Below are positions 6,618-39,488 of a stretch of DNA of 43,349 nucleotides, piece by piece (positions within the stretch are counted from its first letter, which is position 1; every line of letters starts with the position of its first letter). The position numbers and the translations under genes were made by a program. Source of the stretch: a virus (Duplodnaviria; Heunggongvirae; Uroviricota; Caudoviricetes); IMG/VR virus record IMGVR_UViG_2541047690_000002. One strand, written 5' to 3'. The notes under the pieces were generated by a model that was given only the letters and a program-made list of their open reading frames with translations, was not told the origin of the DNA and did not search any database.

Positions 6618-7067
6618 TTATTGTTCTTGATTGATCTTATCGAAGATATCATGACTTAATTTTTGCACATTTAGGAAATTTACTATGAAGAAGACAATTG
6701 CGTAAATTATTAATGTGAAAAAAAGTATTGAAGGAGAGAATTTTAGTATCAGGGATTTAAATTCAAAGCTGAACTCATACTCTTTTAAATATTCACTAAG
6801 CACAAGGCATAAAGTAGAAAGAGTGAAAAAGCGCAAAAAAGAATTTCGTATAGATACCAATTCTTTTCTGATAACTTTAACATAATTAATGTTTTTAATG
6901 CCAGACATGTTAAAAGTTACAATCAACCCTAACCCGATAGAAAACATTATGCCACAGACAGAATACAATGTAGAAATCAAAAACTGATCAGGCCTCCAAG
7001 CTAAAAATGATGGAAGCCCGATAGTAATTATCAGAACAATTAGCAAGCTAGCTATTTGTCGCTTCAT
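6618..7067 (-). CDS. Small four-helix integral membrane protein in the RexB position (candidate exclusion-system effector)
   Basis: 149 aa; four hydrophobic segments of about 20 residues (approx. residues 4-24, 32-52, 80-100, 113-134); markedly AT-rich codon usage; 20-nt overlap with the upstream gene; same strand and immediately downstream of cI. Confidence 0.6.
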   Translation of the reverse strand: MKRQIASLLIVLIITIGLPSFLAWRPDQFLISTLYSVCGIMFSIGLGLIVTFNMSGIKNINYVKVIRKELVSIRNSFLRFFTLSTLCLVLSEYLKEYEFSFEFKSLILKFSPSILFFTLIIYAIVFFIVNFLNVQKLSHDIFDKINQEQ

Positions 7068-8073
7068 TTTCTATCTCTTTTAAATATCTGCTCATTTCTT
7101 GAAATACCTCTTGTTCTACAAGCTTGCCTGAATCAGTAACCTCAATTGTTACAATTTTAATCTTAAGAAGATCTTTGCCTTTTATTTCTGAGCGACCATC
7201 ACTTCGTTTGAATACAATGTTATCAAGATCACTAACAGGTTTTAATGTTGCACCTAATAGTTTAGCATAACTATCTTCATCCATGCTCCTTGGTTTACTA
7301 AACTTTATCAACAGTTCAGCTGATACTATTTGATTGTCAATTATTTCTTTTAGATTTGGGAAATTTGGTACAGCTGATTTCAATGCATTTAAAACAGCGT
7401 GTGAAAGTTTTATTTTTGTATTTTTTTCTTCAATTTCTGATGGTGGCGATTTCATATCGGATGACTGAACCAATACTTCTTTTGGAAGAGGAGATGGATC
7501 TCTCACAGAAATTGATTTTATATCCTTAAGCTGAACTTTATTACCTTTAACAATCATCGGTGTGAATTCAATCATTTCATTCCCAACCAGCCAGCGTATA
7601 TAAGTTTGTAGAGATGATATAGTCCTATTCATCTGCAGATTGGTAACTAAATAATTATCACTTATACAGAAGTAGAAATGGTTTTTGCATACGACCTCTG
7701 TATCAATGTCAGCATTATGGAGATCACTAATTGTAAATGATTTTTTGTTAAAAAGTTGATCGGGAATCTTTTCAACTCCCTCGCTTGGGGCAATTCTAAC
7801 CATTGTACAAAAAACAGAATTACTGTTGTCTGATGTCTGATAGAACGATATCAAATCTTGTTCTTGCCTAAGATCGTCAGAGTTTAAAACCATGCAACGT
7901 TCTTTTACGGTAGATGAGTCAACTAGCTTTTGTAATAAAAGCTTTTTCGCGGGGCTAGATTTTTCTGTTAGATTATTGTTTTCTATCTTAAAAGCTCTTA
8001 ATTTCACTTGTTTAGGTTTATTATGTTTTTTATTTACAGAGCTGCTATTTTCACTATTCATAGAATCAACCAT
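7048..8073 (-). CDS. Hypothetical 341-aa protein in the RexA position (candidate sensor of a cI-linked exclusion system)
   Basis: ATG at 8073; AT-rich, Lys/Asn/Ser-rich product without recognisable catalytic motif; 93-nt gap from cI stop, co-directional with cI. Confidence 0.55.
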   Translation of the reverse strand: MVDSMNSENSSSVNKKHNKPKQVKLRAFKIENNNLTEKSSPAKKLLLQKLVDSSTVKERCMVLNSDDLRQEQDLISFYQTSDNSNSVFCTMVRIAPSEGVEKIPDQLFNKKSFTISDLHNADIDTEVVCKNHFYFCISDNYLVTNLQMNRTISSLQTYIRWLVGNEMIEFTPMIVKGNKVQLKDIKSISVRDPSPLPKEVLVQSSDMKSPPSEIEEKNTKIKLSHAVLNALKSAVPNFPNLKEIIDNQIVSAELLIKFSKPRSMDEDSYAKLLGATLKPVSDLDNIVFKRSDGRSEIKGKDLLKIKIVTIEVTDSGKLVEQEVFQEMSRYLKEIENEATNS

Positions 8074-8166: not shown

Positions 8167-8859
8167 TCATCCATGCTTTCTGTATGTCTGCGGCATGCTC
8201 CCAATAACTTTCCCGAAGATAAACACCCGGTTCATCTCGTCTTTCTCGATCGGGTCCCACGGTGAGTAGCTCTTGTTATCAGAGATAACCAGCAGCTTAT
8301 CCTTCATCATTTGCAGGCGCTTTACATGGGCTGTGTCGTCATACAGAAACGCATAGATACCATCACCGTCGAAAGATTTAACCGTGATATCAACGAACAG
8401 AAGATCACCTGGTTCGATCGTTCCTGACATGCTGTCACCACGCACGTTAATGATGCGGATATTTTCCGCCTTCCTGCCATCGAACATGTGACGAGCATCG
8501 TCAAACGAGTACTCAACCGAGCGTAGAACTTCTACAAACTCACGGTTGATTACACCCGGCCCGGCACTGACTTCTATATCAAGAACGTCAATCTTGAAGT
8601 ATTTTGAATGGCTGACAGCAGGCTTCCCTGATTGTTGACCGTCATTTCTCATCGGGCCTATGCCTGATGAGAGCCATTCTGTTCGAACACCCAATGCATT
8701 AGCTATTTCAACAATTTTTGTTGAGCCGCGCGCGTTGCCGCTTGTCAGTCTCCAGATTGTGGGTTGAGCTACGCCAGACGCCTTTGCAAGAGCGCCTTGA
8801 GACATTCCAGATTGTTCCATCGCTAGGTTTAAGCGATCAGCAAGAGTTTCTTTTTTCAT
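8167..8859 (-). CDS. cI: CI-type prophage repressor (HTH plus LexA-like S24 peptidase domain)
   Basis: N-terminal HTH (QGALAKASGVAQPTIWRL), C-terminal self-cleavage motifs (GDSMSGTI, serine nucleophile; downstream Lys); start placed at the first ATG (MKKETL...); the track ORF reaches 8895 via a TTG codon. Confidence 0.8.
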   Translation of the reverse strand: MKKETLADRLNLAMEQSGMSQGALAKASGVAQPTIWRLTSGNARGSTKIVEIANALGVRTEWLSSGIGPMRNDGQQSGKPAVSHSKYFKIDVLDIEVSAGPGVINREFVEVLRSVEYSFDDARHMFDGRKAENIRIINVRGDSMSGTIEPGDLLFVDITVKSFDGDGIYAFLYDDTAHVKRLQMMKDKLLVISDNKSYSPWDPIEKDEMNRVFIFGKVIGSMPQTYRKHG

Positions 8860-8969
8860 AAGTTTTAATTTATACGCTTGCGTATTGATAGTCAAAACAC
8901 GTTTTGCTATTGCTTGGATTAATACGCATTGCTATTATTCATTCATTGCAATACCAATAGGAATTGATA
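8860..8969. promoter_or_regulatory. Divergent cI/cro operator-promoter region (OR, PRM/PR analogue)
   Basis: Intergenic between divergent repressor and cro; contains TTGCTATTGC, CATTGCTATT and TGATAGTCAAAACAC repeats shared with the 6420..6500 region. Confidence 0.55.
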
Positions 8970-9197
8970 ATGACAAATCAAACCATTCAACTCGCAATCA
9001 GTATTACAGGTAGTCAAAAACGACTGGCAGATCTATGCGGTGTAGCCCAACCCACAGTTTGGCGTTGGCTACACGGTGGCGGAATTGATGCCCGCTATGT
9101 AATGAAAATTGTCTCAGCCACTGGTGGAAAGATTAAACCAGCAGATATTCGTCCCGACCTCGCACCATTGTTTAACGCGAGTAATTCTGCCGCCTAA
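8970..9197 (+). CDS. cro: Cro-like HTH regulator (YdaS-type)
   Basis: About 75 aa; HTH motif GSQKRLADLCGVAQPTVWRW and C-terminal RPDLAPLF typical of YdaS-like Cro proteins; divergent from cI. Confidence 0.7.
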   Translation: MTNQTIQLAISITGSQKRLADLCGVAQPTVWRWLHGGGIDARYVMKIVSATGGKIKPADIRPDLAPLFNASNSAA

Positions 9198-9221
9198 ACT
9201 GCGGCGTTAACTGATAAGGCA

Positions 9222-9767
9222 ATGACTATGCAACCACTTACATACCAACAGACTAGCGGATTTAGCCCGACTGCGGTGATAAATCGTTCTCAAATAAAAC
9301 AAGCTCCAGACCACGAAAAAATCCGTGATGCCGTCCGCGCCTGGTCGGCTGTAGATAATCAGGATGTCGTTGCCGCACTCATTGTGAATGAGTATCGGGA
9401 GCAGGGCGACGGCACCATCGATTTCCCTGATGATGTCAGCCGTGCACGCCAGAAGCTGTTCCGCTTCCTCGATAACAAATTCGATTCTGAAAAATACCGA
9501 AATAACGTGCGTGAACTGACCCCGGCAATTCTGGCGGTACTACCGCTGGAATATCGCGGTTACCTGGTTGAGCAGGATAGCTTCATGACTCGGCTGGCTG
9601 AAATGGAAAAGGAACTCAGTGAGGCAAAACAGGCTGTCATTCTCAACGCACCACGCCACCAGAAACTGAAGGAAATTAGTGAAGGTATTGTGTCGATGTT
9701 TCGTGTGGACCCGGATCTGGCTGGTCCATTGATGGCGATGGTTACCACCATGTTGGGGGCAATATGA
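9222..9767 (+). CDS. Hypothetical protein in the cII position (possibly YdaT-like regulator)
   Basis: 181-aa ORF between cro and O; assignment by position and weak recollection of YdaT-family proteins following YdaS-type Cro; no motif verified. Confidence 0.35.
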   Translation: MTMQPLTYQQTSGFSPTAVINRSQIKQAPDHEKIRDAVRAWSAVDNQDVVAALIVNEYREQGDGTIDFPDDVSRARQKLFRFLDNKFDSEKYRNNVRELTPAILAVLPLEYRGYLVEQDSFMTRLAEMEKELSEAKQAVILNAPRHQKLKEISEGIVSMFRVDPDLAGPLMAMVTTMLGAI

Positions 9768-9853
9768 CAGGCTCAGAAATGGCGAAAGCCGGTCTGCGGG
9801 AACAGAGCCGACTTTCAGGCGCAAATCGTAACGCACTCATTGCGGGAGGAATT

Positions 9854-10783
9854 ATGGCAAACACTGCTGAGATATTCAATTTTCCAGTGCCGGATGTGGC
9901 ACAAAAGGAGCCGCGCGTGGCAGATCTCGATGATGGTTATACGCGCATTGCAAATGAGTTGCTGGAAGCTGTGATGCTGGCCGGATTAACACAGCACCAG
10001 CTTCTGGTCTTCCTGGCTGTCATGCGCAAAACATATGGCTTTAATAAAAAACTGGATTGGGTGAGCAACGAGCAACTTTCCGAATTGACCGGGATATTGC
10101 CGCACAAGTGTTCTGCTGCAAAAAGCGTTCTGGTAAAGCGTGGGATTCTTATTCAGAGCGGGCGGAATACCGGCATTAATAATGTGGTCAGTGAATGGTC
10201 AACATTACCCGAATCAGGTAAGAAAAATAAAGTTTACCTGAAAGAGGTAAATTTACCTGAATCAGGTAAAAAAAGTTTACCCAAATCAGGTAAAGACGTT
10301 TACCCGAATCAGGTAAACACAAAAGACAAACTAACAAAAGACAATATAAAACCTTATTCGTCCGAGAATTCTGGCGAATCCTCTGACCAGCCAGAAAACG
10401 ACCTTCCTGTGGTGAAACCGGATGCTGCGATTCAGAGCGGCAGCAAGTGGGGGACAGCAGAAGACCTGACCGCCGCAGAGTGGATGTTTGACATGGTGAA
10501 GACCATCGCGCCATCAGCCAGAAAACCGAATTTTGCAGGGTGGGCTAACGATATCCGCCTGATGCGTGAACGTGACGGACGTAACCACCGCGACATGTGC
10601 GTGCTGTTCCGCTGGGCATGCCAGGACAACTTCTGGTCCGGTAACGTGCTAAGTCCGGCCAAACTCCGCGACAAGTGGACCCAGCTCGAAATCAACCGTA
10701 ACAAGCAACAGGCAGGCGTGACAGCCAGCAAACCAAAACTCGACCTGACAAACACAGACTGGATTTACGGGGTTGATCTATGA
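9854..10783 (+). CDS. O: Replication initiator protein O (lambda-type)
   Basis: Start at ATG 9854 with GGGAGGA SD; N-terminus MANTAEIFNF...VADLDDGYTRIANELLEA parallels lambda O; contains in-frame iteron-encoded repeats LPESGKK. Confidence 0.88.
   Translation: MANTAEIFNFPVPDVAQKEPRVADLDDGYTRIANELLEAVMLAGLTQHQLLVFLAVMRKTYGFNKKLDWVSNEQLSELTGILPHKCSAAKSVLVKRGILIQSGRNTGINNVVSEWSTLPESGKKNKVYLKEVNLPESGKKSLPKSGKDVYPNQVNTKDKLTKDNIKPYSSENSGESSDQPENDLPVVKPDAAIQSGSKWGTAEDLTAAEWMFDMVKTIAPSARKPNFAGWANDIRLMRERDGRNHRDMCVLFRWACQDNFWSGNVLSPAKLRDKWTQLEINRNKQQAGVTASKPKLDLTNTDWIYGVDL
10203..10317. repeat. Replication origin iterons (ori-lambda type) inside the O gene
   Basis: Four to five direct repeats of TTTACC(C/T)GAATCAGGTAAA spaced about 23 bp apart (10205, 10233, 10252, 10276, 10299), followed by an A-rich stretch (10318..10355). 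Confidence 0.85.
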
Positions 10784-11502
10784 AAAACATCGCCGCACAG
10801 ATGATTAACTTTGACCGTGAGCAGATGCGTCGGATCGCCAACAACATGCCGGAACAGTACGACGAAAAGCCGCAGGTACAGCAGGTAGCGCAGATTATCA
10901 ATGGTGTGTTCAGCCAGTTACTGGCAACTTTCCCGGCGAGCCTGGCTAACCGGGACCAGAACGAACTGAACGAAATCCGCCGCCAGTGGGTGCTGGCTTT
11001 CCGGGAAAACGGGATCGCCACAATGGAACAGGTTAACGCAGGAATGCGCGTAGCCCGTCGGCAGAATCGACCATTTCTGCCATCACCCGGGCAGTTTGTT
11101 GCATGGTGCCGGGAAGAAGCATCCGTTACCGCCGGGCTGCCAAACGTCAGCGAGCTGGTTGATATGGTTTACGAGTATTGCCGGAAGCGTGGCCTGTATC
11201 CGGACGCAGAGTCTTATCCATGGAAATCAAACGCGCACTACTGGTTGGTTACCAACCTGTACCAGAATATGCGGGCCAATGCGTTGACTGACTCGGAATT
11301 ACGGCGCAAGGCTGCCGATGAACTTGCCCATATGACTGCGAGAATTAACCGTGGTGAGGCGATTCCCGAGCCAGTTAAACAGCTTCCGGTTATTGGTGGT
11401 AAGCCGCTATCCCGTATACAAGGATTGGCAAAGTTGGCTGAGATTCGCGAGAAGCACGGACTGAGAAGACGTAAACAATTAACGGGAGTGAAGCTAACCT
11501 GA
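10780..11502 (+). CDS. P: Replication protein P (DnaB helicase loader)
   Basis: 240-aa translation recalled as near-identical to lambda P over most of its length (MKNIAAQMINFDREQMRRIANNMPEQYDEKPQ...); start overlaps O stop (ATGA). Confidence 0.92.
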   Translation: MKNIAAQMINFDREQMRRIANNMPEQYDEKPQVQQVAQIINGVFSQLLATFPASLANRDQNELNEIRRQWVLAFRENGIATMEQVNAGMRVARRQNRPFLPSPGQFVAWCREEASVTAGLPNVSELVDMVYEYCRKRGLYPDAESYPWKSNAHYWLVTNLYQNMRANALTDSELRRKAADELAHMTARINRGEAIPEPVKQLPVIGGKPLSRIQGLAKLAEIREKHGLRRRKQLTGVKLT

Positions 11503-11847
11503 ACTACCTTCAAGACACATAAAACCTTTCCCCCAGAAAATATAGTTCATCCTGCGGCATCAACCAGACCGTAAACATTCTGACAAAGCAGGGCGATCTG
11601 GTCGATGTCAGCAATATCTAGCGAACGATTCACTACCGATTGGTAACCGAAGAGGAAATCTCTTGGCACAAAAGCACCAATCAGATTTTCGATGATGGCC
11701 CCCAAGCCCGGTGATGACGCGAATTTTACTAGCCTACGAGAGGAACGGAGCATGAAGACAGCACCGAGCACAGTGTAACTATTCGATTTTTTTCTGTTTG
11801 ATTTTTCGACATACTACATTATATAGCTCGATATCCTTTCATTTTAC

Positions 11848-13053
11848 TTATTCAATTAACGGTACTTGTTTGTTGCAGAATACTAATATTGCATCTTGAG
11901 TAAGTTTTTTATGCATATGCTTTAGCGGCTCAATGTTAGTCTCGTAACCGAAAGTAGCGAAAAGAGTTGGTTCTATAATGAAATTTTCTTCATAAGCTTT
12001 TAGATCAAATGCTCTCTTTGCAATTAATCTAACTGCTTTCTTTCTAATGCGTGAATTATATCTATTCTCTATGCTAAGTTTAGCCATGTTTTCATCGATG
12101 TTGTTTTTTTGTTTTTTTAGTATAATTTGAATGTGATCATCATCAATTTGGCCATCTCTATATATATAATCAATGTCATAATTAAAATCAAAAAGCTGAG
12201 TGTCATTTACACCTTCAAGAAAAGGATTTGAAAATGGGCTCATGATCGGATCGAGTGATTTTTTATAAGTACTATTGCATTTAGTGCAGCTAGGAATTAA
12301 GTTAAATAAACTAAAGGAGATCAACGGATATTTGTACTTAGGTATGAAATGATCAAATGCTGGCCTGTAGCTAGTACCTGTATGGTCTTCTACTTGTTCA
12401 ATTTCTTCACTGTTGCAATATGGGCATATGCTAATGTCTAAAAAACTGTTCAATTGATACGCTGTTTCTCTATCAATAAGTGAGTATTTAAATATTTCAG
12501 AAATATTTTTAACCCATGATGGAAATAACTTAATGGTATTTTCCTTTAAAGGACCACCATTCTTGATACTTATAAGATTAAGAATCTTATCTCTTAAACT
12601 AGATAATTTTTGTGGTGAGAAATGTGTATTTAATATATCCTCAAGTATTAGGCTTTGTGTAGTTTGAGAGAAAGATGTGATTATTTTGATGGCATGTGCT
12701 AGTTCATTATAAACTATTTTTTTGTTTTCTTTTGTTTTTAAAGGTAATTGTAGGTTTGTTAATGGTTGTAAATTTAAGTGCCTTAAAAAATAATCAGGAG
12801 AATAGTACTCACACACAATTGGGTGTTTGTTGTATATTTTGATGATTATATTTTTTAATCGTTTGGGTTTTGAAAAAACTAATTTTCTGATAGTTTTTTT
12901 GTTGATTGTATTTAGAAACTCTACTTCATCGGGAGTAATGTTCAGTAACTTCCTCTGCTTCACGCGTTTATTAACTTTGCTTACTATTTTAGAAAAGGAT
13001 ATTTTTACATCAACATTGAAGTCTTTGTTTATTTTTATCATTTTTTTACTCAT
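11848..13053 (-). CDS. HNH (His-Me finger) motif protein, putative nuclease effector (PtuB-like)
   Basis: 401 aa; motif CPYCN-x20-DHFIPKYKYP-x10-NLIPSCTKCN at residues about 210-260 (nt about 12265..12426) matches the C-X2-C...DH...N...C-X2-C HNH pattern; extremely AT-rich; start overlaps upstream ATPase stop (ATGA). Confidence 0.6.
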   Translation of the reverse strand: MSKKMIKINKDFNVDVKISFSKIVSKVNKRVKQRKLLNITPDEVEFLNTINKKTIRKLVFSKPKRLKNIIIKIYNKHPIVCEYYSPDYFLRHLNLQPLTNLQLPLKTKENKKIVYNELAHAIKIITSFSQTTQSLILEDILNTHFSPQKLSSLRDKILNLISIKNGGPLKENTIKLFPSWVKNISEIFKYSLIDRETAYQLNSFLDISICPYCNSEEIEQVEDHTGTSYRPAFDHFIPKYKYPLISFSLFNLIPSCTKCNSTYKKSLDPIMSPFSNPFLEGVNDTQLFDFNYDIDYIYRDGQIDDDHIQIILKKQKNNIDENMAKLSIENRYNSRIRKKAVRLIAKRAFDLKAYEENFIIEPTLFATFGYETNIEPLKHMHKKLTQDAILVFCNKQVPLIE

Positions 13054-14837
13054 TTCTCAAAAGAATCTGTTTTATCATTGTTTTTGTTTAACTTCAGATC
13101 AATAAGATTTATGAGAAGTTTATTTTTAATTTGTGATAGTATGGTTTTTTGATGTTTATTTAAATTACCGTCATCTGAGTTTTTTATTATTGAGTTTAGA
13201 TAATTATGTGCGTGCTGTCCTATTGTAGCATCAATAAAAAAACCATTTATATATAATTCTGATATGGTTGCTCCGAAACCAAACTCTACTTTCTTAGTAT
13301 AGGTTCCTTGATTATGATCTCTTTCAAGATATATTATATCTGATGGCAAAAAATCACTTGCGAGTATAGGGGAGTGAGTTGTAAATACTAATTGAATATT
13401 TTTACTTTGTTTATATCTTAATGTTAAATCTATAATTTCTGAAAAAATAACTCGTTGCCATTCAGGGTGTAGATATAAATCACACTCATCTAATAATATT
13501 ATAATATTTTTGCTGTTGCTATGTTCTATAGAATCATAAAGTTGATTGAAAAGGTTTAATTTTGCAAACTCTCCTGAACTAAGTGAATCCCAACCATACT
13601 TAAATCGCGATGATACGCCATTTGGTAACCTATCAACTAATCTTATTAACTCCATAATCTGCTTTGGTTCTTCAACTGTGAAAGATAAACTATCAACTGG
13701 GTCTCTTGCTGTGTTTTCTAATATATCAGCTATATTACCTATAATGTCGGAGATATGTTCAGATAACATTTCTATTTTTGACTGAAATTTAACATTAACG
13801 TTAAATTCATCTAAAGTCTCTAATATAGTTTTTGCTGGATCTTTTTCTTCAAGATACGCGCGACACAAGCAAAATAAATAAACAGTCTCACATATGTCTT
13901 TAGGGATTTTTGATGTCTTGAGTAAATGCCATGTTATTGCAGGCAAAAGCATCAAGTAAATTATTTTGTGATATGAAAAGGTTGCGAGGAAATTTAATGA
14001 TCTTTCTTTGTTAAAAATAATGCTAATAATAAAATCTTCATCGTAATCTATCCCATGATTGAGTATATCCACAAGTGAAATACCTAAAGAATCTAAATCA
14101 CGTTCAATATATCTAGGGAGTTTATTGTTTTTAATTCTATCATTCAACGTATCAAAAAAGTATTCAATAGCTCCAAAAAGTCCTTTGTCACCAATATCAT
14201 TGTTTTTTATAATAGAATTTATTTTATATACTGGTGAGTTTTCTATTTCAAATTGAAATTTAGTATTAAGTCTTGATAAATTGTCTTTAGCCCATGAACT
14301 GTGGTCTGAAAATGAAATTAATTGCTTGAGTAATTTCTTATTGCGTGTTTTACTGCCTTGCAAAAAATATGACAGTGATAAATCTTTAGAAATCGAATCG
14401 TTTTTTTTCTTTTTTTGTCCAACTAACATACTTTTGAGGTCGATTGTGTTATTTATCTTTATTAGGTTGATTTTGTTTCTTCTAAAAAAATGTTCATTAT
14501 TATCAATCAGTTCCGTTTGCATTTTGGATAATATTACAGGAGGTTTGCAATTGCTTGTGATAATTATAAGTTTATCATTTTCATTCCAGATGCTATAACC
14601 GCTACCTTCAAAATCGTAAATAAAGCTACTAATGAAATCTAAAATTGATGACTTTCCAACACCATTTTTCCCTAAAATTAATGTACAGGGAATATTGCTA
14701 TAATAGTCACGACTTAAATCTTTCTTAGCAATTGTAAGGACGTTACCTTTATGGCTAAAGGTAAATTTACTTGAGGTGGGGAGGGACAGCTTATTTAAAC
14801 CTTTATAATTGTGGATATAAGTGTATATTAGTTCCAT
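13050..14837 (-). CDS. ABC-type/AAA ATPase (PtuA/AriA/OLD-like defense ATPase)
   Basis: 595 aa; Walker A GKNGVGKSS (residues 56-64), ABC-signature-like LSSGE, Walker B IIILLDECD and H-loop FTTHSP near the C-terminus; AT-rich. Confidence 0.7.
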   Translation of the reverse strand: MELIYTYIHNYKGLNKLSLPTSSKFTFSHKGNVLTIAKKDLSRDYYSNIPCTLILGKNGVGKSSILDFISSFIYDFEGSGYSIWNENDKLIIITSNCKPPVILSKMQTELIDNNEHFFRRNKINLIKINNTIDLKSMLVGQKKKKNDSISKDLSLSYFLQGSKTRNKKLLKQLISFSDHSSWAKDNLSRLNTKFQFEIENSPVYKINSIIKNNDIGDKGLFGAIEYFFDTLNDRIKNNKLPRYIERDLDSLGISLVDILNHGIDYDEDFIISIIFNKERSLNFLATFSYHKIIYLMLLPAITWHLLKTSKIPKDICETVYLFCLCRAYLEEKDPAKTILETLDEFNVNVKFQSKIEMLSEHISDIIGNIADILENTARDPVDSLSFTVEEPKQIMELIRLVDRLPNGVSSRFKYGWDSLSSGEFAKLNLFNQLYDSIEHSNSKNIIILLDECDLYLHPEWQRVIFSEIIDLTLRYKQSKNIQLVFTTHSPILASDFLPSDIIYLERDHNQGTYTKKVEFGFGATISELYINGFFIDATIGQHAHNYLNSIIKNSDDGNLNKHQKTILSQIKNKLLINLIDLKLNKNNDKTDSFEK

Positions 14838-17422: not shown

Positions 17423-18520
17423 TTAGAACTGGTAAACCAGACCTACAGCAACGATGTCATCAGTGCTTACACCGAGTGCTTTAGTGAAGTCATTTTTGTC
17501 AAGCAGGTTGATTTTGTAATCAACGAAAGTAGACATATTTTTGTTGAAGTAATAGGTTGCACCTACATCAACATATTTGACTAAGTCCTGATCGCCCCAT
17601 ACTCCAAGATCTTTACCTTTAGATTGCAGGTAAGCAACGGACGGACGCAGACCGAAATCGAACTGATATTGTGCAACAGCTTCGAAGTTTTGGGCTTTAT
17701 TAGCAACGAAGTGATCAGCAAATACAGTCATATTCTGGGTTTCAGAATAGGTAGTGGCCAGGTAAATGTTGTTAGCGTCATATTTCAGACCTGCGGCCCA
17801 AACTTCTGCATTTTTACCGGAAGCAAATACTTCAGGAAGAACTTTCCCTGCATTAACTTGAGTGTCGGTACGATCAGATTTCGCATAAGTTGCACCGATA
17901 CCGAATCCTTCGTATTCATAGGTAGCAGAGAAACCGAAGCCATCACCGTTACCTTCAGTGTAGTTATCGAAATCGCTACGATCGTTTTTGCCTTGGTACT
18001 GAGCAGCAAAGTTCAGACCATCAACCAGACCAAAGAAGTCGTTGTTACGATAGGTTGCAACACCAGTGGTGCGACCAGTCATGAACACATCTGTTTGGGT
18101 CCAGGTATCGCCACCGAATTCTGGCAGAACGTCAGTCCACGCACCGATGTCGTATGCTACACCGTAGTTACGGCCGTAATCGATTGAGCCGTAGTCACCG
18201 AATTTCAGGCCTGCAAATGCAAGACGGGTTTTGTCTTTGGAGGAACCTTGAGATTCAGCGCGGTTGCCTTTGAATTCATATTCCCACTGACCGAAACCAG
18301 TCAGTTGATCGTTGATTTGGGTTTCACCTTTGAAGCCAAGACGGGCATAAGTAGTATCACCATCATCTGCATCATTAGAGGAGAAGTAGTGCTTGGCATT
18401 AACTTTCCCGTACAGATCCAGCTTGTTACTGTCTTTATTATAAATTTCAGCTGCCTGAGCAGACATCGCCATCAGTACTGATGCAGCTACAGCAGAAATT
18501 GCCACTGTTAATTTTTTCAT
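17423..18520 (-). CDS. nmpC: Outer-membrane porin, OmpC/NmpC family (prophage moron)
   Basis: 365-aa product with signal peptide ([23 protein letters not shown]) and C-terminal ...VGLVYQF beta-barrel terminus; same place and orientation as nmpC in DLP12. Confidence 0.9.
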
Positions 18521-38943: not shown

Positions 38944-39488
38944 AAACGGGGGCTGAAGCCATCCGGGCGCTGGCCACACAGCTTCCGTCGTTTCGCCAGA
39001 AACTGAATGAGGGCTGGTATCAGGTGCGCATTTCCGGGCGTGATGCAGGCGAAAATGAATTATCTGCCCGTCTTAATGAACCGCTGGCAAATGGTGCCGT
39101 GATCCACGTCGTTCCGCGTCTGGCGGGTGCCAAAAGTGGCGGTGTGTTTCAGGCGGTGCTGGGTGCGGCGCTGATTGCGGTGGCATGGTGGAACCCTGTT
39201 GGCTGGCTGGGGGCCGCGGCTGTATCGGGTCTGTATGCAGCAGGGGCCAGTATGATCCTGGGTGGTGTGGCGCAGATGCTGGCACCGAAAGCCAGGACGC
39301 CCACGGCAGCCAGTACAGATAACGGCAAACAGAACACGTATTTCTCGTCACTGGATAACATGGTTGCCCAGGGCAATGTTCTGCCTGTTCTGTACGGGGA
39401 AATGCGCGTGGGATCACGTGTGGTTTCTCAGGAGATCAGCACGGCAGACGAAGGGGATGGTGGTCAGGTTGTGGTGATTGGTCGCTGA
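38841..39488 (+). CDS. I: Tail assembly protein I
   Basis: 215 aa; N-terminus MAATHTLPLASPGMARICLYGDLQRFG matches lambda gpI; overlaps K 3' end out of frame; the middle segment is shorter than I recall for lambda I. Confidence 0.85.
   Translation: MAATHTLPLASPGMARICLYGDLQRFGRRIDLRVKTGAEAIRALATQLPSFRQKLNEGWYQVRISGRDAGENELSARLNEPLANGAVIHVVPRLAGAKSGGVFQAVLGAALIAVAWWNPVGWLGAAAVSGLYAAGASMILGGVAQMLAPKARTPTAASTDNGKQNTYFSSLDNMVAQGNVLPVLYGEMRVGSRVVSQEISTADEGDGGQVVVIGR

What the first reader, a model, noticed from the sequence alone, without database searches (positions are those of the whole stretch)
10203..10355. Replication-origin iterons embedded in the O coding sequence
Four to five 19-bp direct repeats (TTTACCYGAATCAGGTAAA) followed by an A-rich region lie inside O and encode the repeated peptide LPESGKK. 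This is the classic lambdoid origin arrangement; the iteron sequence gives the replication specificity type of this prophage.
Basis: seen in the sequence. Interest (0 to 1): 0.2.

Follow-up and report, generated by a model that had tools for sequence, protein, structure and literature searches.

The report
Lambda-type replication origin inside gene O
The repeats are the initiator-binding sites and easily melted A-rich stretch of an ordinary lambda-style phage replication origin lying inside the phage's own initiator gene; the repeat sequence differs from lambda's, and this version occurs in about four of every ten complete E. coli genomes.

Summary
Five copies of a 19-bp near-palindrome (core TTACC-N7-GGTAA) lie at 10204-10317, where none is expected by chance. 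A 40-bp A-rich stretch follows at 10318-10357. All of it lies inside an O-family initiator gene (9854-10783), and a lambda P gene comes next.

Repeat spacing (19/24/23) and the distance to a conserved ACAAAAGAC pair match the experimentally defined origins of lambda and P22. The repeats fall in two reading frames, and their arms are far less polymorphic than the spacers. The repeat type tracks residues 70-115 of the O DNA-binding domain: 14 of 14 loci against 0 of 17.

The locus is a mosaic. The left module (O N-terminus, iterons, A-rich region) is closest to P22. From about 10354 rightwards the sequence is 92-100% identical to lambda.

This specificity type differs from lambda, 21, 434, phi80, P22 and HK97. 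Phage 82 could not be compared. The module is in 2297 of 5426 complete E. coli genomes and in 15 phage genome records.

Function is inferred by homology; nothing was tested experimentally. This is an ordinary feature of low interest.

The parts
9854..10783 (+). Gene O, the replication initiator (309 aa from ATG 9854). GenBank relatives annotate the longer ORF starting at ATG 9764.
   Evidence: Pfam Phage_rep_O, E = 1.9e-34. Homology to the O proteins of lambda, Klebsiella phage GZ7 and SEN34 begins at MANTAEIFNF, i.e. at 9854. Both start versions are present in the protein collection.
10061..10198 (+). Codons 70-115 of O, containing the motif LPHKCSAAKS. This is the proposed iteron-recognition segment of the DNA-binding domain.
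   Evidence: Identity over this segment is at least 65% in all 14 loci with TTACC-N7-GGTAA iterons and at most 54% in all 17 loci with other iterons. Residues 20-69 do not separate the two groups. The assignment is an inference; there is no structure.
10204..10222 (.). Iteron 1, the distal extra copy: ATTACCCGAATCAGGTAAG
   Evidence: It is present 29 bp upstream of iteron 2 in E. coli, Enterobacter, Klebsiella and Pseudocitrobacter and absent in Pantoea, Xenorhabdus and Providencia.
10233..10251 (.). Iteron 2: TTTACCTGAAAGAGGTAAA
10252..10270 (.). Iteron 3: TTTACCTGAATCAGGTAAA (18 of 19 positions self-complementary)
10276..10294 (.). Iteron 4: TTTACCCAAATCAGGTAAA
10299..10317 (.). Iteron 5, next to the A-rich region: TTTACCCGAATCAGGTAAA
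   Evidence: The distance from its start (TTACC) to the ACAAAAGA anchor is 19 bp in all 14 type-A loci.
10318..10357 (.). A-rich, strand-asymmetric region, the presumed DNA-unwinding element. It holds two 15-bp units, ACAAAAGACAAACTA and ACAAAAGACAATATA.
   Evidence: It is 75% A+T with 24 A out of 40, and the least stable 40-bp window in 9200-11600 starts at 10319. The ACAAAAGA pair is conserved at this position in lambda, P22, mEp213, SEN34 and Klebsiella phages.
10360..10387 (.). Imperfect inverted repeat GTCCGAGAATTC-TGGC-GAATCCTCTGAC (10 of 12 complementary), shared with lambda (11 of 12).
   Evidence: Read directly from the sequence. It lies in the lambda-identical segment.
10354..11350 (+). 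Lambda-identical module: the O C-terminal (P-interacting) domain and most of P. The mosaic junction sits at the right edge of the A-rich region.
   Evidence: Nucleotide identity to lambda is 24-72% left of 10354 and 92-100% from 10354 to about 11250, then declines to 88% by 11350. O residues 168-309 are 99.3% identical to lambda O and P is 93% identical to lambda P.
10780..11502 (+). Gene P, the helicase loader
   Evidence: Pfam Phage_lambda_P, E = 7.3e-62.

Best explanation
This is the cis-acting replication origin of a lambdoid prophage, built like ori-lambda and embedded in the linker-coding part of gene O. What the sequence shows: five 19-bp dyad-symmetric iterons (core TTACC-N7-GGTAA), a 40-bp A-rich low-stability stretch, an O-family gene around them and a lambda P gene after them. 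What I infer from the lambda paradigm: dimers of the O N-terminal domain bind each iteron and assemble a bent nucleoprotein complex (the O-some). In supercoiled DNA this complex opens the adjacent A-rich region. The O C-terminal domain, here 99% identical to lambda's, recruits the P-DnaB complex. Host chaperones then free DnaB to start bidirectional replication. The four iterons nearest the A-rich region are the core. The distal fifth copy probably raises the local O concentration or stabilises the complex, as proposed for the extra iterons of Stx phages. The iteron sequence together with O residues about 70-115 defines a replication-specificity type distinct from lambda, 21, 434, phi80, P22 and HK97. 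Its half-sites resemble P22's but lie 2 bp further apart.
For: 1.
2. The host gene is Phage_rep_O and the next gene is Phage_lambda_P.
3. The geometry equals that of the annotated origins of lambda and P22. Spacing is 19/24/23 against 20/24/23. The last iteron centre lies 11 bp from the ACAAAAGAC pair in both this window and lambda.
4. The A-rich block is the least stable duplex in the O-P region.
5. The constraint is on the DNA. The copies lie in two reading frames. Among 60 haplotypes from 79 IMG/VR loci, the TTACC/GGTAA arms are polymorphic at 3 of 50 sites, all singletons (0.06 minor haplotypes per site). The spacers score 1.58 per site and the flanking coding sequence 0.74.
6. The iterons are conserved across genera. 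Core, spacing (19/24/23) and the 19-bp distance to the anchor are the same in 14 loci from Enterobacter, Kluyvera, Klebsiella, Pseudocitrobacter, Pantoea, Xenorhabdus, Providencia, Arsenophonus and Sodalis.
7. The iteron type covaries with O residues 70-115: 14 of 14 loci against 0 of 17.
8. The left module travels with three different partner types: lambda P, a DnaC/IstB-like ATPase, and a Toprim protein. This is what an independent origin-recognition module would do.
9. Fifteen phage genome records, several listing laboratory E. coli C or K-12 as host, carry the same O and ori at 97-99% identity.
10. The lambda paradigm and the precedent for extra iterons are described in PMC6022878 and PMC7466680.
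Against: There is no experimental evidence for this iteron type. No paper in the searchable library contains the sequence, and none of the related GenBank records I opened annotates an origin here. No structure of an O DNA-binding domain exists and my single-sequence model was unusable, so the recognition segment rests on covariation alone. The consensus scan did not find a rightward pR-type promoter upstream; reading the sequence by eye gives only a plausible TTGCTT-17-TATTAT. Whether this particular prophage is replication-competent is unknown.
Confidence: 0.9

Rival explanations
1. The sequence has the right architecture for an origin but is inactive here. It would be a relic in a defective prophage, or one iteron array among several in the host genome that is never fired.
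For: Nothing in the window proves that it fires. Many E. coli genomes carry 2-3 copies of this module, and prophage pools are often defective. The consensus scan found no clear rightward promoter.
Against: O and P are intact ORFs. The 507-bp module is 100% identical in several genomes and 97-99% identical to that of sequenced phages. The window holds an apparently complete lambdoid gene set running from integrase to tail fibre genes. The iteron arms are under purifying selection across the population.
Confidence: 0.07
2. The repeats exist for the protein. They would encode a repeated flexible linker peptide (LPESGKK) in O and have no cis-acting DNA role.
For: LPESGKK occurs twice and LPKSGK once. 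The region encodes a K/S/G/P/N-rich segment whose length varies between relatives.
Against: Two of the five DNA copies are read in a different frame and give unrelated peptides, VYLKEV and VYPNQV. Each copy is a DNA palindrome. The palindrome arms are conserved, whereas the spacers vary. Lambda, P22 and phi80 have analogous arrays at the same place that encode unrelated peptides.
Confidence: 0.01
3. The palindromes are binding sites for a different protein, such as a repressor or exclusion factor, or they act as hairpins in the O mRNA that regulate translation.
For: The array folds strongly as a single strand (z = -6.6). Cloned lambda origin regions are known to interfere with the growth of phages of the same replication type (PMC3349717 abstract).
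Against: Strong folding is trivial for a set of identical palindromes. No Rfam family matches here. The motif occurs nowhere else in the 43-kb window. The iteron type tracks the O DNA-binding segment rather than the repressor or the partner genes.
Confidence: 0.02

Closest known systems
ori-lambda (four iterons ITN1-4 plus a high-AT region inside lambda gene O; also found in phages 21 and 434)
   Same: The position inside O is the same. The iterons are 18-19 bp and dyad-symmetric. Spacing is 20/24/23 in lambda against 19/24/23 here, and the distance to the ACAAAAGAC pair is 11 bp in both. The A-rich block and the flanking inverted repeat are shared. The O C-terminal domain is 99.3% identical and P is 93% identical.
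   Different: The iteron sequence differs: TCCCTC-N5-GAGGGA in lambda against TTACC-N7-GGTAA here. There are five copies instead of four. The O N-terminal domain is only 49% identical.
Salmonella phage P22 origin inside gene 18
   Same: This is the closest classical N-terminal domain, at 63% identity. The half-site bases are the same (TTTAC / GTAAA), the spacing is 20/24/23, and the doubled ACAAAAGACAATA unit is the same.
   Different: P22 units are 17 bp (TTTAC-N7-GTAAA), so the half-sites lie 2 bp closer together than here (TTTAC-N9-GTAAA). P22 has four copies. The gp18 C-terminus differs and pairs with gp12, which the P22 record describes as similar to DnaB helicase, not with P.
Stx phages 933W and P27: lambda-type origin with six iterons (PMC7466680)
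   Same: They have extra iterons distal to the A-rich region, on top of a core of four. In those phages the distal copies are bound weakly but are needed for plasmid replication. That is a plausible model for iteron 1 here.
   Different: Their iterons and O N-terminus are lambda-type. They have two extra copies rather than one.
Klebsiella phages GZ7 and 6 LV-2017, and prophages of Enterobacter, Kluyvera, Pantoea, Xenorhabdus and Providencia
   Same: They have the same iteron type and the same spacing. The O N-terminus is 65-85% identical.
   Different: The O C-terminal domains differ and pair with DnaC/IstB-like or Toprim partners. Copy number ranges from 4 to 9.
phi80 origin inside gene 15
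   Same: The architecture is the same. The cII-position gene of this window is 66% identical to phi80 cII.
   Different: The iterons are TTCCC-N6-GGGAA with 20/21/21 spacing. The N-terminus is 39% identical and the C-terminus 47%.

Membership tests
Lambda-type (lambdoid) origin embedded in an O-family initiator gene | It lies inside a Phage_rep_O-family gene, between the N-terminal DNA-binding domain and the C-terminal domain. | tested here: met
   The Pfam match covers O residues 21-115. The iterons begin at codon 117. The lambda-identical C-terminal domain begins at residue 168.
Lambda-type (lambdoid) origin embedded in an O-family initiator gene | An array of at least 3-4 direct repeats of 18-19 bp, each with internal dyad symmetry, spaced about 20-24 bp apart. 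| tested here: met
   There are five copies, self-complementary at 14-18 of 19 positions, spaced 29/19/24/23. Lambda and P22 are spaced 20/24/23.
Lambda-type (lambdoid) origin embedded in an O-family initiator gene | An A+T-rich, strand-asymmetric region of about 40 bp immediately to the right of the last iteron. | tested here: met
   10318-10357 is 75% A+T with 24 A. It is the least stable 40-bp window in the O-P region, and the ACAAAAGAC pair is conserved with lambda and P22.
Lambda-type (lambdoid) origin embedded in an O-family initiator gene | A helicase-loading partner gene immediately downstream of the initiator gene. | tested here: met
   Phage_lambda_P, E = 7.3e-62, and 93% identical to lambda P.
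Lambda-type (lambdoid) origin embedded in an O-family initiator gene | The iteron sequence is matched to the initiator's N-terminal domain (type specificity). | tested here: met
   Covariation with O residues 70-115: 14 of 14 loci against 0 of 17.
Lambda-type (lambdoid) origin embedded in an O-family initiator gene | Rightward transcription from pR passes through or near the origin (transcriptional activation). | tested here: inconclusive
   The gene order, with the repressor divergent from cro-like, cII-like, O and P, fits. The consensus scan found no promoter on the + strand. Reading by eye gives only a plausible TTGCTT-17-TATTAT at 8910-8938.
Lambda-type (lambdoid) origin embedded in an O-family initiator gene | O protein binds the iterons, unwinds the A-rich region and supports O/P-dependent replication. 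| not testable with these tools
   This needs EMSA or footprinting and a plasmid replication assay.
Lambda replication-specificity type (lambda, 21, 434) | Iteron ATCCCTCAAAACGAGGGA with the cognate O N-terminus. | tested here: not met
   The arms differ, and the N-terminus is 49% identical.
P22 replication-specificity type | A 17-bp iteron TTTAC(C)-N5/7-(G)GTAAA with the gp18 N-terminus. | tested here: not met
   The half-site bases are the same but lie 2 bp further apart. Residues 70-115 are 52% identical.
phi80 replication-specificity type | Iteron TTCCC-N6-GGGAA with the gp15 N-terminus. | tested here: not met
HK97 / mEp213 / SEN34 replication-specificity type | Iteron TTAGC-N7-GCTAA. | tested here: not met
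Phage 82 replication-specificity type | The iteron sequence of phage 82, published in 1979-81. | not testable with these tools
   No phage 82 origin record turned up among the phage hits, and no paper held in the library gives the sequence. From memory only: phage 82 has a type-specific O N-terminus combined with a lambda-compatible P, which is the layout seen here. That is a lead, not a test.

The most novel reading that the evidence does not exclude
The TTACC-N7-GGTAA iteron, together with the O recognition segment LPHKCSAAKS, may be a replication-specificity group that has never been characterised experimentally or annotated, even though it is among the commonest in E. coli prophages. Its discrimination from the P22 group could rest largely on a 2-bp difference in half-site spacing, and residues about 80-95 of O could be the recognition helix.
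Probability: 0.4. Interest if true: 0.2.

Novelty: already known. Interest (0 to 1): 0.1.

Why it matters
The practical value is annotation. The origin is not marked in the related phage records I opened. The iteron type gives a quick sequence key (TTACC-N7-GGTAA, five copies, spacing 29/19/24/23) for sorting lambdoid prophages into replication-compatibility groups. That is useful for predicting which co-resident prophages can cross-activate or interfere with one another. The covariation with O residues 70-115 proposes a recognition segment for a protein family that has no solved structure. None of this changes the current understanding of lambdoid replication.

Tried and rejected
1. Structure prediction of O from its single sequence gave mean pLDDT 40.5 and pTM 0.26, so it was unusable and I ran no fold search. 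An alignment-based run would have needed the expensive protein-database search, which I judged not worth the cost for an ordinary feature.
2. PDB searches with the protein and with a 28-sequence profile of the N-terminal domain found no relative; the best hit had E = 0.1 and was spurious.
3. A literature search for the iteron sequence itself returned 0 papers. Searches aimed at the phage 82 origin found only reference-list mentions.
5. Rfam at gathering thresholds over the whole window found only a tRNA at 1369-1441 and nothing in the O region.
6. The promoter and terminator scan of 8700-11900 found no more sites than shuffled sequence gives and no rightward promoter.
7. The plasmid collection gave 10 hits. 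Several records are hundreds of kb to 4.9 Mb long and look like chromosomal sequence filed as plasmid, and three are 28-42 kb Klebsiella records that may be phage genomes. This says nothing about autonomous replication.
8. Single-strand folding of the array gave z = -6.6. I rejected it as evidence for an RNA or cruciform role because identical palindromes must pair with one another.
9. My first scan reported 'no iterons' in L094 and L096. That was an artefact of a roughly 90-aa insertion that pushes the origin downstream. They do have an array, of another type.

Full report
**1. What is in the sequence**

Reading 9700-11500 and running the repeat finder shows five copies of a 19-bp near-palindrome:

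| Copy | Coordinates | Sequence |
|---|---|---|
| 1 | 10204-10222 | ATTACCCGAATCAGGTAAG |
| 2 | 10233-10251 | TTTACCTGAAAGAGGTAAA |
| 3 | 10252-10270 | TTTACCTGAATCAGGTAAA |
| 4 | 10276-10294 | TTTACCCAAATCAGGTAAA |
| 5 | 10299-10317 | TTTACCCGAATCAGGTAAA |

Start-to-start spacing is 29, 19, 24, 23. The degenerate core TTACCYRAAWSAGGTAA, allowing one mismatch, occurs only at these five places in the 43-kb window. The expected number was 0.00 in 100 dinucleotide-preserving shuffles. Each copy is self-complementary at 14-18 of 19 positions.

Immediately to the right, 10318-10357 holds 24 A, 6 T, 8 C and 2 G. It contains two 15-bp units that begin ACAAAAGAC. In a nearest-neighbour stability scan, the least stable 40-bp window of the whole 9200-11600 region starts at 10319.

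One detail needs correcting. Copies 1, 3 and 4 are read in one frame and give LPESGKK, LPESGKK and LPKSGKD. Copies 2 and 5 are read in another frame and give VYLKEV and VYPNQV. The 'repeated peptide' is a by-product of the DNA repeat and does not explain it.

**2. Gene context**

- The enclosing ORF is an O-family initiator (Pfam Phage_rep_O, E = 1.9e-34).
- The next ORF, 10780-11502, is a P helicase loader (Phage_lambda_P, E = 7.3e-62).
- Upstream lie a divergent S24-peptidase repressor (8167-8895, minus strand), a YdaS-family HTH in the cro position and a YdaT-family ORF in the cII position. The YdaT-family ORF is 66% identical to phi80 cII.
- Homology to the O proteins of lambda, Klebsiella phage and SEN34 starts at ATG 9854 (MANTAEIFNF), which gives 309 aa. 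GenBank relatives annotate the longer ORF from ATG 9764. Both versions are in the protein collection.

**3. Comparison with experimentally defined origins**

The lambda record annotates four iterons at 39034-39118 inside O, and the P22 record annotates an origin inside gene 18. The repeat finder gives spacings of 20/24/23 for both. The four proximal copies here are spaced 19/24/23.

I aligned eight phages on the ACAAAAGAC pair that follows the last iteron in all of them. The arrays are positionally equivalent. The centre of the last iteron lies 11 bp from that anchor both here and in lambda. The imperfect inverted repeat to the right of the A-rich block (10360-10387) is also shared with lambda.

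[quoted passage not shown] That description fits this element point for point.

**4. Mosaic structure**

O residues 1-115 are 49% identical to lambda, 63% to P22, 39% to phi80 and 84% to Klebsiella phage GZ7. Residues 168-309 are 99.3% identical to lambda O, and P is 93% identical to lambda P.

At the nucleotide level, identity to lambda is 24-72% up to 10353. It jumps to 92-100% from 10354. The junction therefore sits exactly at the right edge of the A-rich region. The left module (DNA-binding domain, iterons and A-rich block) and the right module (P-interacting domain and P) have separate histories.

**5. Evidence that the repeats are selected as DNA sites**

- *Reading frame.* The copies use two frames.
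- *Population data.* Eighty IMG/VR loci carry this O N-terminus at 96-100% protein identity. Among 60 haplotypes from the 79 loci kept, the TTACC/GGTAA arm positions are polymorphic at 3 of 50 sites, all singletons (0.06 minor haplotypes per site). The spacers score 1.58 per site and the flanking O coding sequence 0.74.
- *Length variants.* All are in frame and involve whole units: a 24-bp deletion that removes one iteron, and a third copy of the 15-bp A-rich unit.
- *Other genera.* A scan of one genome per species found the same core in Enterobacter, Kluyvera, Klebsiella, Pseudocitrobacter, Pantoea, Xenorhabdus, Providencia, Arsenophonus and Sodalis. Together with Klebsiella phage GZ7, that gives 14 type-A loci. 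The four proximal copies are spaced 19/24/23 in the 12 loci from Enterobacter to Providencia plus GZ7, and the spacing differs in Arsenophonus and Sodalis. The 19-bp distance from the last iteron to the anchor holds in all 14. Copy number ranges from 4 to 9. The 48-bp unit made of iterons 1 and 2 is the piece that amplifies in Kluyvera.

**6. Specificity type**

I classified the arrays next to 80-odd O homologues. Every locus with at least three TTACC-N7-GGTAA copies has an O N-terminus at least 65% identical to this one. Below 65% the arrays belong to other types:

- P22- and Yersinia-like, TTTAC-N7-GTAAA
- HK97/mEp213/SEN34-like, TTAGC-N7-GCTAA
- phi80-like, TTCCC-N6-GGGAA
- lambda-like

Two loci, L094 and L096, are 70-76% identical overall yet have a different array (TTTC...GGAAA). 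Splitting the domain resolves this. Identity over residues 70-115 is at least 65% in all 14 type-A loci, which share the motif LPHKCSAAKS. It is at most 54% in all 17 others, including L094 and L096. Identity over residues 20-69 does not discriminate.

This covariation is what one expects if that segment reads the iteron. It remains an inference, because no O structure exists and my single-sequence model was unusable.

Relative to P22, the half-site bases are the same but lie 2 bp further apart. Phages 21 and 434 carry lambda-type origins. Phage 82 could not be compared because it is absent from the collections and the library.

**7. Modularity**

The type-A origin module is found next to three kinds of partner:

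- lambda P (E. coli, Pantoea deserta, Arsenophonus)
- DnaC/IstB-like ATPases (Enterobacter, Xenorhabdus; the Klebsiella phage records annotate a DnaC-type loader)
- Toprim proteins (Pantoea BRM17, Providencia)

Origin recognition and helicase recruitment are therefore separable. The classical lambda hybrid work reached the same conclusion (Furth and Yates 1978, as cited in PMC6022878).

**8. How it most likely works**

Shown here: the anatomy, the conservation and the covariation.

Inferred from lambda:
1. O dimers bind the iterons and form a bent O-some.
2. The A-rich block melts in supercoiled DNA.
3. The lambda-identical O C-terminus recruits P-DnaB.
4. Host chaperones release DnaB.

The distal iteron 1 probably plays the supporting role proposed for the two extra iterons of Stx phages, which are bound weakly yet are required for plasmid replication (PMC7466680). 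Lineages with only four copies show that it is dispensable in at least some phages.

**9. How common it is, and novelty**

The 507-bp module is present, with at least 80% coverage, in 2297 of 5426 complete E. coli genomes. It is in 15 phage genome records at 97-99% identity. The exact protein occurs on about 300 contigs, within a 90%-identity cluster of 7825 members. The related records I opened annotate the O gene but no origin, and no paper in the searchable library contains the iteron sequence.

What this check adds is the exact copy number and geometry, the mosaic junction, the specificity class and a candidate recognition segment. I rate it as already known and of low interest. There is a modest chance that this very common specificity type has simply never been described formally.

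Noticed in passing
window 11848-14837 (- strand): A low-GC gene pair sits between P and the nin region. One is a 595-aa AAA_15/AAA_21 ATPase (PADLOC PDC-M62A, E = 4e-44, with weaker PtuA hits). The other is a 401-aa HNH-like protein (PDC-M62B, E = 1.2e-33, with weaker PtuB hits). Together they look like a Septu-like candidate anti-phage defence system carried as a prophage moron.
   Followed up: partly
window 6618-8073 (- strand): Two ORFs, of 149 aa (hydrophobic) and 341 aa, lie directly downstream of the repressor gene, in the position lambda uses for rexAB. Neither has a Pfam or PADLOC match.
   Followed up: partly
window 8964-9767: The cro and cII positions are occupied by YdaS-family (E = 1e-14) and YdaT-family (E = 2.8e-30) ORFs. 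The YdaT-family protein is 66% identical to the annotated 'CII decision making protein' of phi80. Pfam's 'toxin' names for these families therefore look misleading in this context.
   Followed up: partly
window 9764 vs 9854: The O start codon is ambiguous. Database records use either ATG 9764 (an ATGA overlap with the upstream stop, giving 339 aa) or ATG 9854 (a GGAGG lies 4 nt upstream, giving 309 aa). Homologues in lambda, SEN34 and Klebsiella phages start at the position equivalent to 9854.
   Followed up: partly
window 17423-18520 (- strand); 1369-1441 and 1459-2622: A Gram-negative porin gene (Porin_1, E = 1e-156) sits inside the prophage late region. At the left end, a tRNA gene lies next to a tyrosine integrase, which probably marks the attachment site.
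   Followed up: no
L094 (Enterobacter sichuanensis) and L096 (Klebsiella grimontii), locus 1501-2620: These O genes carry a roughly 90-aa T5orf172 (GIY-YIG-like) domain inserted between the DNA-binding domain and the iterons. Their iteron type differs (TTTC...GGAAA) and so does their 70-115 segment.
   Followed up: partly
L091 (Kluyvera), L107 (Sodalis), L027 and one other IMG/VR locus: Iteron copy number varies naturally. Kluyvera has 9 copies through amplification of the 48-bp two-iteron unit. Sodalis has 9 copies beside an O gene broken by a stop codon. One E. coli-type locus has lost an iteron through a 24-bp deletion, and another has a third 15-bp ACAAAAGAC unit.
   Followed up: partly
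L135 (Arsenophonus nasoniae), locus ~1720-1960: This array mixes two half-site flavours: TTCCC...GGGAA (7 hits) and TTACC...GGTAA-like (4 hits). The units alternate, unlike the homogeneous arrays seen elsewhere.
   Followed up: no
L143-L148, L151-L153, L156 (genome contigs): Assemblies labelled Shewanella, Chromatiales, Pseudomonas, Leeuwenhoekiella, Neobacillus, Oceanobacillus, Paenibacillus, Bradyrhizobium and Chromatium contain a lambda O gene that is 100% identical to lambda's. Three of the contigs are about 48.4 kb long. This is almost certainly lambda control-DNA contamination of the assemblies.
   Followed up: yes
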